Source: Escherichia coli
GTDB taxonomy: Bacteria > Pseudomonadota > Gammaproteobacteria > Enterobacterales > Enterobacteriaceae
Length of the DNA: 64,000 nucleotides
Assembly: GCF_048403405.1 (NCBI RefSeq)
Contig: NZ_CP183129.1
Reading direction: 5' to 3' (one strand)
Below, piece by piece: positions 62,514-64,000 of this stretch. The notes beneath the pieces were generated by a model, which had not been told where the DNA came from, made no database searches, and was given only the letters and a program-made list of their open reading frames with translations. Position 1 is the stretch's first letter, and every line of letters starts with the position of its first letter. The translations under genes were made by a program, and so were the position numbers.

Positions 62514-62531
62514 ATTCCTACAATTGTAAGA
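62514..62531. promoter_or_regulatory. EvgA-box-like inverted repeat upstream of yfdX (ttcctaca at tgtaagac)
   Basis: Resembles the 18-bp EvgA consensus TTCYTACA-N2-TGTARGAA; a second weaker copy at about 62554-62569. Confidence 0.45.
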
Positions 62532-62667
62532 CTAAAATACTTCTTGCGATAATAACTACAACTGTAAGATAACCCTTTCAAAATGAGCGTTGCTCTCTGA
62601 TTTCTCATTTCATGCTCACCCAATATGATGGCGGCGTTTTCTAAAACTGTTAAAGAATGAGGTAAGT

Positions 62668-63300
62668 ATGAAACGTTTAATTATGGCTACGATGGTCACA
62701 GCAGTTCTGGCATCTTCAACTGTATGGGCTGCTGATAATGCACCGGTAGCGGCACAACAGCAAACTCAGCAAGTTAAGCAAACCCAGAAAACGGCAGCAG
62801 CAGAGCGTATCTCTGAACAAGGTTTATATGCGATGCGTGACGTGCAGGTAGCGCGCCTGGCTCTGTTTCATGGCGATCCGGAAAAGGCAAAAGAACTGAC
62901 CAATGAAGCTTCAGCTTTGTTGTCAGATGACAGTACCGAATGGGCAAAGTTCGCTAAGCCAGGTAAAAAAACCAATGTCAATGATGACCAATATATTGTC
63001 ATTAATGCATCTGTCGGAATTTCTGAGAGTTATGTAGCGACACCCGAAAAAGAAGCCGCGATAAAAATTGCCAACGAAAAAATGGCGAAAGGGGATAAAA
63101 AGGGCGCAATGGAAGAGCTGCGCCTGGCCGGTGTTGGCGTAATGGAAAACCAATATCTGATGCCGCTCAAACAGACTCGTAATGCACTTGCTGATGCGCA
63201 GAAACTGCTTGATAAAAAGCAATACTACGAGGCAAACCTGGCGCTTAAAGGTGCGGAAGATGGAATCATCGTCGATAGCGAAGCACTGTTTGTGAACTAA
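62668..63300 (+). CDS. yfdX: YfdX, periplasmic protein
   Basis: 210-aa ORF with signal peptide. Confidence 0.85.
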
Positions 63301-63543
63301 CGCTGACAGGCAGTATATTGAGGTAAAGGATTTAACTCCCTCCAGCCGACAATTTTTTATGACCACAATACGACAGGTTGTGGTCATAAAATTATTTGGC
63401 GCTCGCGGTTCTATAAACTCGCATTTTATCTTCTTCAAAGTAAACCGCAATAATCCCGTGTCATCACAAATCATTTATTATGTTATGTTTTATGGTACGC
63501 TTTAAAAGGCGTAATCATACCCTTACTTGTAAATCACCGGCGC

Positions 63544-63561
63544 TTCTTACAGTTGTAAGAA
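63544..63561. promoter_or_regulatory. Perfect EvgA-box palindrome upstream of frc (ttcttaca gt tgtaagaa)
   Basis: Exact match to both half-sites of the EvgA consensus, about 250 bp upstream of the frc start. Confidence 0.55.
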
Positions 63562-63812
63562 TAACATCACAAATGTCGCGGCTCTCTCTGATTACCGCGA
63601 ACCAATATTTATCATATTCTTCTTTTCGTCCTCACTACTTACCATGCAGAAAGGAATTGGAAGTGGCGATGAAATGATTTTCAGCACTTGATACAGGAAT
63701 TTAAAAATATCGAGTGCAGCTACGACGATATTTTGCGGATTATTTATAGAGGGCGTTATGCCTTAAATAAACGCTAAATTAACATATATTTAATTAACTA
63801 ATAGGTATTGCT

Positions 63813-64000
63813 ATGTCAACTCCACTTCAAGGAATTAAAGTTCTCGATTTCACCGGTGTGCAATCTGGCCCATCTTGTACTCAGATGCTGGCCTGGTTTG
63901 GCGCTGACGTCATTAAAATTGAACGTCCCGGCGTTGGTGACGTAACGCGTCACCAGCTGCGAGATATTCCTGATATCGATGCGCTTTACTTCACCATGCT
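63813..64000 (+). CDS. frc: Frc, formyl-CoA:oxalate CoA-transferase (N-terminal part; continues past window end)
   Basis: Manual translation [63 protein letters not shown]; start position uncertain by 1 bp. Confidence 0.8.

What the first reader, a model, noticed from the sequence alone, without database searches (positions are those of the whole stretch)
63544..63561. Perfect 18-bp EvgA-box palindrome upstream of frc
ttcttaca gt tgtaagaa matches both half-sites of the EvgA consensus exactly, about 250 bp upstream of frc; a related half-site pair (ccttac tt gtaaat) lies about 20 bp upstream of it. This fits the known EvgA control of the acid-resistance yfdX-frc-oxc cluster.
Basis: partly seen in the sequence, partly recalled or inferred. 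Interest (0 to 1): 0.3.

Follow-up and report, generated by a model that had tools for sequence, protein, structure and literature searches.

The report
Known EvgA binding site upstream of frc
The 18-bp inverted repeat is real and is almost certainly the already published docking site where the acid-sensing regulator EvgA switches on the E. coli oxalate/formyl-CoA acid-resistance genes, so it is a correct but ordinary finding.

Summary
The sequence TTCTTACAGTTGTAAGAA is at 63544-63561, 252 nt before the frc ATG (63814), in the 513-bp yfdX-frc spacer of an E. coli chromosome. It matches all 16 specified positions of the EvgA consensus (4.6e-5 expected per window). The arms are 8+8; the central GT is not symmetric.

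The other consensus-like sites in the extended locus lie upstream of yfdX (two) and in the evgA-emrK spacer, all EvgA-controlled regions. The box is invariant in 8 diverse E. coli strains. It is 100% identical in 5239 of 5407 records over alignments that include it. It recurs 274-277 nt (box start to ATG) before frc in two distant lineages with the same gene cluster. It is absent upstream of frc in five enteric genera whose loci show no consensus match.

Published work says EvgA binds inverted repeats before yfdX and yfdWUVE and binds the frc promoter region. The primary papers were not readable, so the identity with the published site is inferred.

I infer a promoter with -10 TATTCT at 63615-63620 and a start near 63627, placing the box at about -74.5.

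Verdict: already known; low interest.

The parts
63544..63561 (.). EvgA box TTCTTACA-GT-TGTAAGAA (half-sites 63544-63551 and 63554-63561), upstream of frc
   Evidence: 0 mismatches to the consensus. Invariant in 8 E. coli strains. 100% identity in 5239 of 5407 records over alignments that include it. Orthologous boxes in L129 and L132. Equals K-12 NC_000913.3 2,493,506-2,493,523.
63562..63586 (+). Conserved stretch between the box and the TCTGAT element (TAACATCACAAATGT... invariant in E. coli); role unknown
   Evidence: Invariant run of 34 bp covering the box plus 15 downstream bases. Identical TAACATCACAAAT in L129.
63587..63592 (+). TCTGAT, invariant promoter-proximal element at box start +43..+48; role unknown
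   Evidence: Present in 6 of 6 promoter instances across four lineages. Related TCYNNT at the same offset in K-12 safA, ydeP and emrK.
63591..63596 (+). Predicted weak -35 (ATTACC, 18-bp spacer)
   Evidence: Inference. The orthologous ATTACA-18-TATTAT is the only + strand promoter-like site in the L129 spacer. The TTAC core is conserved in three lineages.
63615..63620 (+). Predicted -10 hexamer TATTCT of the EvgA-dependent frc promoter
   Evidence: TATNNT at box start +71..+76 in 6 of 6 instances. TAnnnT at +70 or +71 in K-12 emrK, safA and ydeP. The spacer sequence varies while its length is fixed.
63627..63627 (+). Predicted transcription start (plus or minus 2 nt), giving a leader of about 187 nt and the box centre at about -74.5
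   Evidence: Inference from the -10 position. Not verified against published start-site mapping.
63814..64000 (+). 5' end of frc (formyl-CoA transferase); runs off the window end
   Evidence: RefSeq annotation of matching genomes.
62668..63300 (+). yfdX coding sequence (210 aa)
62515..62532 (.). EvgA box 1 upstream of yfdX (TTCCTACAATTGTAAGAC, 1 mismatch)
62553..62570 (.). EvgA-like box 2 upstream of yfdX (TAACTACAACTGTAAGAT, 3 mismatches), in the same register to TCTGAT and the -10 as the frc box
   Evidence: (best in-register similarity 43/90, z about 4.6).
62624..62629 (+). Predicted yfdX -10 (TATGAT), 71 nt after the box 2 start
63355..63391 (+). Strong hairpin after yfdX (15-bp stem), terminator-like; separates the yfdX and frc transcription units
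   Evidence: (-25.7 kcal/mol, z -7.7). Compensatory A/T to G/C change in strains ECOD1 and SMS-3-5. Stem kept in L129.
63521..63534 (.).

Best explanation
The 18-bp inverted repeat is the high-affinity operator for a dimer of phosphorylated EvgA, a NarL/FixJ-type response regulator, with one helix-turn-helix per 8-bp half-site.

Mechanism. When EvgS senses mild acidity it phosphorylates EvgA. EvgA binds this site and activates a weak sigma-70 promoter about 60 bp downstream. That promoter drives frc-oxc-yfdV-yfdE, the proton-consuming oxalyl-CoA/formyl-CoA cycle. yfdX upstream has its own EvgA boxes, its own promoter and a strong terminator-like hairpin, so frc is a separate EvgA-controlled unit.

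Shown here: the site, its statistical specificity, its conservation, and its fixed spacing to downstream elements.

Taken from the literature: EvgA binding to the frc promoter region, and EvgA/EvgS-dependent induction.

Inferred: the -35 (ATTACC, 63591-63596), the -10 (TATTCT, 63615-63620), a start near 63627, the box centred near -74.5 (an upstream, class-I-like activator position), and a leader of about 187 nt.
For: Sequence and statistics.

Clustering: the only other consensus-like sites in 29 kb of the extended locus lie in the yfdX upstream region and the evgA-emrK spacer. The experimentally studied safA and ydeP upstream regions carry the same box with 1-2 mismatches.

Conservation:
- The box is invariant in 8 diverse E. 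coli while flanking bases vary.
- It is 100% identical in 5239 of 5407 records.
- It is retained 274-277 nt (box start to ATG) before frc in two diverged lineages that carry yfdX-frc (L129-131 with the whole cluster through an evgS-like gene, and L132), although the spacers are only about 70% identical.
- It is absent (best 5-7 mismatches) within 600 bp upstream of frc homologues in Dickeya, Mangrovibacter, Moellerella, Providencia and Atlantibacter.

Fixed geometry: box, then TCTGAT at +43, then TATNNT at +71, in 6 of 6 promoter instances. The same -10 offset occurs in K-12 emrK, safA and ydeP. The L129 orthologue scores as ATTACA-18-TATTAT, the only + strand promoter-like site in that spacer.

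Literature:
- PMC3720670: EvgA binds inverted repeats before yfdX and yfdWUVE.
- PMC8147483: EvgA binds the frc promoter region.
- PMC4283999: frc and oxc top the genes induced in constitutive evgS mutants, and EvgA sites are found only at known targets.
- PMC10746267: yfdX, frc, oxc and yfdV are induced by acid.
Against: - The primary papers with the gel shifts and footprints (Masuda & Church 2003; Itou et al. 2009) were not available, so I could not confirm base by base that the published frc site is this 18-mer.
- The promoter and start site are predictions. The consensus scan found no + strand promoter-like site in the E. coli spacer downstream of the box.
- A genomic SELEX study picked a different hexamer pair upstream of the box (window 63425-63454) for RNA polymerase alone.
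- The Klebsiella cluster, which sits next to an EvgS-like kinase gene, has no frc box, so the box is not universal wherever EvgS homologues occur.
Confidence: 0.9

Rival explanations
1. EvgA binds here but works mainly by displacing H-NS from this AT-rich spacer (counter-silencing), not by recruiting RNA polymerase from a fixed upstream position. This is a variant of the mechanism and does not exclude the best explanation.
For: The spacer is 63% A+T. Shimada 2014 (PMC3946193) flags the frc/yfdX spacer as H-NS-bound and as bound by RNA polymerase holoenzyme alone.
Against: The strictly conserved spacing, with no indels over about 105 bp in three lineages and the same box-to-(-10) distance in seven promoters, points to a stereospecific contact rather than simple displacement.
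Confidence: 0.2
2. The repeat is used by, or shared with, another NarL/FixJ-family regulator of the acid network, such as RcsB (alone or with a partner) or GadE, rather than EvgA alone.
For: The right half-site plus flank, TAAGAATAACATCA, matches 11 of 14 positions of the RcsB element KMRGAWTMWYCTGS quoted in PMC6394985. That match is by my own inspection.
Against: That degenerate pattern at 3 mismatches hits 486 places in the window against 307 expected by chance, so the resemblance carries no information. The site fits the EvgA consensus perfectly, and published statements name EvgA.
Confidence: 0.04
3. It is a chance palindrome with no function.
For: One perfect 8-2-8 inverted repeat of any sequence is expected per roughly 64 kb, and exactly one is seen.
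Against: The specific consensus is expected 4.6e-5 times per window. It sits in a cluster of like sites before EvgA-induced genes. It is invariant while its flanks vary, and it is kept in diverged lineages.
Confidence: 0.01
4. It acts as an RNA hairpin in a transcript reading through from yfdX.
For: It lies downstream of yfdX on the same strand.
Against: An 8-bp stem with a 2-nt loop is sterically disfavoured. The real read-through barrier is the strong hairpin at 63355-63391. In L129 and L132 the half-site changes are not compensatory: TTCTGACA pairs with GGTAAGAA in L132.
Confidence: 0.01

Closest known systems
EvgA boxes of E. coli K-12 (ydeP, safA-ydeO, emrK/evgA, yfdX, yfdW = frc; Masuda & Church 2003, cited in PMC3720670)
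   Same: Same 18-bp inverted-repeat consensus. Same regulon. Same distance from the box to a -10-like hexamer (+70 or +71 from the box start) in frc, yfdX, emrK, safA and ydeP. The K-12 sequence is identical to the window's.
   Different: Nothing substantive; this appears to be that very site in a non-K-12 strain. It is the only one of these sites with 0 mismatches (yfdX 1, safA 1, ydeP 2, emrK 2).
BvgA-activated promoters of Bordetella (fha, ptx); BvgA is the EvgA homologue. From my own knowledge, not tested here.
   Same: An inverted repeat of heptad-like half-sites well upstream of the -35, used as the primary high-affinity site of a phosphorylated NarL/FixJ-type dimer.
   Different: BvgA promoters rely on cooperative filling of secondary low-specificity sites down to the -35. 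Whether EvgA does this between 63562 and 63590 is unknown. The half-site sequences differ.
NarL 7-2-7 sites (from my own knowledge)
   Same: Two inverted half-sites separated by 2 bp, bound by a dimer of the same protein family.
   Different: A different heptamer (TACYYMT), a different signal and a different regulon.

Membership tests
EvgA box (EvgA operator) | 18-bp inverted repeat fitting TTCYTACA-NN-TGTARGAA | tested here: met
   0 mismatches at 63544-63561. The consensus itself is from my memory of Masuda & Church 2003. It was validated here because it recovers the yfdX, emrK/evgA, safA and ydeP upstream regions and nothing else in 64+29+12 kb at 2 mismatches or fewer.
EvgA box (EvgA operator) | Lies upstream of a gene induced by EvgA/EvgS activation | tested here: met
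   Position: 252 nt before the frc ATG. Induction comes from the literature: PMC4283999, PMC3720670, PMC10746267.
EvgA box (EvgA operator) | Cognate evgA/evgS present in the genome | tested here: met
   evgS and evgA lie about 5-9 kb beyond the window end in the 99.9% identical genome GN02461 and in K-12. They are not inside the window itself.
EvgA box (EvgA operator) | Specific physical binding of EvgA (gel shift or footprint) | not testable with these tools
   Reported in secondary sources for the frc promoter region (PMC8147483; PMC3720670). The primary papers were not held.
EvgA box (EvgA operator) | Mutation of the repeat lowers EvgA-dependent expression | not testable with these tools
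   From memory, this was done only for ydeP and b1500-ydeO in Masuda & Church 2003. I know of no such test for frc.
EvgA box (EvgA operator) | Evolutionary conservation as a regulatory site | tested here: met
   Best register has 7 mismatches and the arms are 2 bp too close. It is polymorphic and not conserved.

The most novel reading that the evidence does not exclude
EvgA-activated promoters share a rigid, previously unremarked module: the box, then an invariant TCTGAT-like element 43 bp after the box start (about -40 to -35), then a -10 hexamer 71 bp after the box start. The module is kept across E. coli frc and yfdX, a mobile island in genomes labelled Yersinia, an unidentified enteric contig, and Klebsiella yfdX. 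If real, the TCTGAT element would be a second required contact (a further EvgA protomer, the alpha C-terminal domain or sigma), and the module could be used to predict EvgA/KvgA regulons in other genera. It may already be described in Itou et al. 2009, which I could not read.
Probability: 0.2. Interest if true: 0.3.

Novelty: already known. Interest (0 to 1): 0.1.

Why it matters
The finding confirms that a reader working from sequence alone located the operator that ties the oxalate/formyl-CoA acid-resistance genes to the EvgS/EvgA acid sensor. It adds nothing to the known E. coli network.

The modest added value from this work is comparative. The site and its exact spacing to the downstream promoter elements are kept across genera. 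frc is a transcription unit separate from yfdX. Testable coordinates are now available for the frc promoter and start site.

Tried and rejected
1. Primary literature. Masuda & Church 2002 and 2003, Itou 2009, Ma 2004, Eguchi 2007, Nishino 2003 and Fontenot 2013 are not held. Full-text searches for the 18-mer, 'TTCPyTACA' or 'EvgA box' found nothing relevant. I therefore relied on secondary statements.

2. Genome-contig scan. I used a degenerate pattern for the Frc motif [10 protein letters not shown]. The motif turned out to be conserved far beyond enterics (Burkholderiales, Streptomyces, Mycobacterium). Cross-lineage orthologues were obtained through YfdX homologues instead.

3. RcsB-box resemblance of the right half-site. 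Rejected as uninformative: 486 hits against 307 expected.

4. Alternative -10 candidates. TATCAT (63610-63615) and TAACAT (63562-63567) are not conserved in L129 or L132. The second would also put the box at a repressor-like position.

5. Sigma-E reading of TCTGAT. No GGAACTT-like -35 lies 16 nt upstream (inspection).

6. Structured RNA in the leader. No credible Rfam match: one sub-threshold miRNA-family hit on the post-yfdX hairpin, 27 bits against a gathering score of 92. The leader fold z-score is only -2.1.

7. Start-site data. The Cappable-seq supplement (PMC4782308) is truncated in storage, so this locus could not be looked up.

8. The 65-aa ORF 63480-63677 that spans the box. It is not annotated in any RefSeq record examined and was not pursued.

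Full report
**What is there.** The window is an E. coli chromosome segment. Bases 62600-64000 are 99.9% identical to strain GN02461 and 97.4% identical to K-12 MG1655, and 5416 of 5426 complete E. coli genomes carry the region. yfdX occupies 62668-63300. frc starts at 63814 and runs off the window end. The two genes are separated by a 513-bp, 63% A+T spacer. At 63544-63561 the sequence is TTCTTACAGTTGTAAGAA. The two 8-bp arms are perfect reverse complements. The central GT is not symmetric, so it is an 8-2-8 inverted repeat rather than a full palindrome.

**Chance.**
- The consensus TTCYTACANNTGTARGAA (recalled from Masuda & Church 2003) is matched with 0 mismatches.
- The expected number of perfect matches is 4.6e-5 per window and 0.0036 per 5-Mb genome.
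- At up to 3 mismatches the window has only three hits: 62515 (1 mismatch) and 62553 (3 mismatches), both just upstream of yfdX, and this one. Shuffles give 0.46.
- A perfect 8-2-8 repeat of arbitrary sequence is expected about once per 64 kb, and one is seen. The symmetry alone is therefore not significant.
- From memory, the consensus was built from a handful of sites that include this one, so the exact match is partly circular.
- Independent support comes from context, conservation and the literature.

**Context and positive controls.** A 29-kb stretch from the near-identical genome and from K-12 shows the full cluster yfdX-frc-oxc-yfdV-yfdE, then evgS-evgA on the opposite strand, then emrKY. 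In it the consensus (up to 3 mismatches) hits only four places: the two yfdX sites, the frc site, and one site in the evgA-emrK spacer. In 12 kb of K-12 around ydeP and safA-ydeO, the boxes before safA (1 mismatch) and ydeP (2 mismatches) are recovered, plus one 3-mismatch hit inside ydeO. The pattern therefore marks the known EvgA-controlled spacers almost exclusively. K-12 carries the identical 18-mer at NC_000913.3 2,493,506-2,493,523.

**Literature.**
- Mullins et al. [quoted passage not shown] - Johnson et al. 2014 found frc and oxc among the most induced genes in constitutive evgS mutants. They found EvgA sites only at already known targets (PMC4283999).
- Roggiani et al. 2017 use the yfdX promoter as a reporter directly activated by EvgA (PMC5706723).
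- Mild acid induces yfdX, frc, yfdV and oxc (PMC10746267).
- The primary papers were not held. That this 18-mer is the published frc site is therefore an inference. It is a strong one, because nothing else in the spacer comes closer than 7 mismatches.

**Conservation within E. coli.**
- In an alignment of 8 diverse strains (K-12, O157, O111, SMS-3-5, B2-type strains and others) the box is invariant, as are the next 15 bases.
- In the same alignment, positions 2, 4 and 6 bp upstream of the box vary.
- A 34-bp query centred on the box finds 5407 records.
- Of these, 5239 are 100% identical over an alignment that includes the whole box.
- About a thousand of those differ only in the bases just upstream of the box.

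**Conservation across lineages.** YfdX homologues led to three further versions of the cluster.
- L129-131, genomes labelled Yersinia alsatica. YfdX is 83% identical. The cluster is flanked by IS1 and an integrase gene and is followed by an EvgS-like kinase gene. The box is TTCTTACACGCGTAAGAA, starting 277 nt before the frc ATG.
- L132, an unidentified enteric contig. YfdX is 68% identical. The box is TTCTGACAGAGGTAAGAA, starting 274 nt before the ATG. A symmetric variant, TTCTGACATCTGTCAGAA, lies before yfdX.
- The three spacers are only about 70% identical overall. They align without any indel from the box through about 105 bp downstream.
- Klebsiella (L133/134) has the same genes next to an EvgS-like kinase gene, but only 123 bp between yfdX and frc and no frc box. 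Its yfdX is preceded by TTCCGACAATTGTCATCC.
- frc homologues in Dickeya, Mangrovibacter, Moellerella, Providencia and Atlantibacter have nothing better than 5-7 mismatches in 600 bp upstream.

ccttacttgtaaat (63521-63534) is present, but its TTAC/GTAA arms are 2 bp closer than in the consensus. The best 18-bp register has 7 mismatches, and no half-site there reaches 2 mismatches or fewer. It is polymorphic in E. coli: K-12 reads CCTTGC, M1/5 reads GTACAT, SF-468 reads AACCTT. It is not conserved in L129 or L132. It also does not correspond in position to yfdX box 1: its centre is 25 bp from the main box, whereas the two yfdX boxes are 38 bp apart. I reject it as an EvgA site.

**How it probably works (inferred).**
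- Anchoring sequences on the box start shows that the frc promoter and the yfdX box-2 promoter are similar in register. The best ungapped match of the two spacers is exactly this register, 43 of 90 identities against 24.4 plus or minus 4.0 for other offsets.
- Six instances were compared: E. coli frc, L129 frc, L132 frc, E. coli yfdX, L129 yfdX and Klebsiella yfdX.
- All six share an invariant TCTGAT at +43..+48 and TATNNT at +71..+76.
- K-12 emrK, safA and ydeP also have a TAnnnT at +70 or +71 and a TCYNNT at +43.
- In the three frc orthologues the hexamers are kept while the 17-18-bp spacer sequence between them differs. That is the usual signature of a sigma-70 promoter.
- In L129 the scan tool reports ATTACA-18-TATTAT at exactly this place as the only + strand promoter-like site in the spacer.
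- For the window this gives a -35 of ATTACC (63591-63596), a -10 of TATTCT (63615-63620), a start near 63627, the box centre at about -74.5, and a leader of about 187 nt.
- For yfdX the same geometry gives a start near 62636 and a 32-nt leader with a normal Shine-Dalgarno sequence, which is plausible.
- The position suggests an upstream, class-I-like activator.
- Because the spacer is A+T-rich and flagged as H-NS-bound (PMC3946193), relief of H-NS silencing may contribute.
- That same study's hexamer pick for RNA polymerase alone (TTTATA-18-AATAAT in K-12, window 63425-63454) lies upstream of the box. It is a prediction made under a broad SELEX peak.

**Transcription units.** A 15-bp-stem hairpin follows yfdX at 63355-63391 (-25.7 kcal/mol, z -7.7). 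It keeps pairing through a double A/T to G/C change in two strains, and the stem is kept in L129. Together with the separate box and promoter, this fits yfdX and frc-oxc-yfdV-yfdE being separate EvgA-controlled units, as Mullins et al. describe them.

**Verdict.** The main interpretation is supported and already published. The secondary element is not supported. Novelty: already known. Interest: low. The only mildly new points are the cross-genus conservation of the site and the fixed box-TCTGAT-(-10) geometry, whose TCTGAT element I cannot explain.

Noticed in passing
window 62515-62532 and 62553-62570: Two EvgA-consensus matches (1 and 3 mismatches), 38 bp apart centre to centre, upstream of yfdX. 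The weaker, promoter-proximal one has the same register to TCTGAT and the -10 as the frc box.
   Followed up: partly
window 63587-63592 and 62596-62601; L129, L132, L133: Invariant TCTGAT 43 bp after the box start in six promoter instances from four lineages, with related TCYNNT in K-12 safA, ydeP and emrK. It lies just upstream of the predicted -35. Role unknown.
   Followed up: partly
window 63355-63391: Very stable hairpin after yfdX (-25.7 kcal/mol, z -7.7) with a compensatory double substitution in strains ECOD1 and SMS-3-5. Its only Rfam hit is a sub-threshold miRNA family (27 bits against 92), which is spurious.
   Followed up: partly
L129 1-18615, L130, L131: The whole yfdX-frc-oxc-yfdV-yfdE-evgS-like cluster sits next to IS1, other transposase genes and a phage-type integrase in assemblies labelled Yersinia alsatica. 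This suggests the acid-resistance module moves horizontally. IS1 appears to have removed the distal yfdX box.
   Followed up: no
L133/L134 8881-8898 and 9624-9748: In the Klebsiella version of the cluster yfdX and frc are only 123 bp apart with no box between them. yfdX is preceded by TTCCGACAATTGTCATCC (core palindrome GACAATTGTC), with TCTGAT and TATTAT at the same offsets as in E. coli. This may be a KvgA-type variant of the box.
   Followed up: partly
L132 39-990 and 1123-1140: An unidentified enteric contig has hdeA and an hdeD-like gene directly upstream of yfdX, and uses TGACA/TGTCA half-site variants in its boxes.
   Followed up: no
window 63536-63543: About a thousand E. coli genomes differ from the window in the bases immediately upstream of the box (for example CTGACAC against CCGGCGC), while the box itself stays identical.
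   Followed up: partly
window 63425-63454: The hexamer pair picked by a genomic SELEX study for RNA polymerase holoenzyme alone (TTTATA-18-AATAAT in K-12) lies about 90 bp upstream of the EvgA box. The window strain reads TTTATC in the first hexamer. The same table marks the spacer as H-NS-bound.
   Followed up: no
window 63645-63692 and 63480-63677: Two unannotated ORFs: a 15-codon ORF in the predicted frc leader and a 65-codon ORF spanning the box. The leader also has several GGA motifs (AAGGAA, TGGAAG, CAGGAA) that are invariant in E. coli but not kept in L129 or L132.
   Followed up: no
L003-L122: The Frc N-terminal motif [10 protein letters not shown] is encoded in many Burkholderiales, Streptomyces and Mycobacterium genomes, far beyond enterics. 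For that reason a degenerate DNA pattern for it was a poor way to collect Escherichia relatives.
   Followed up: no
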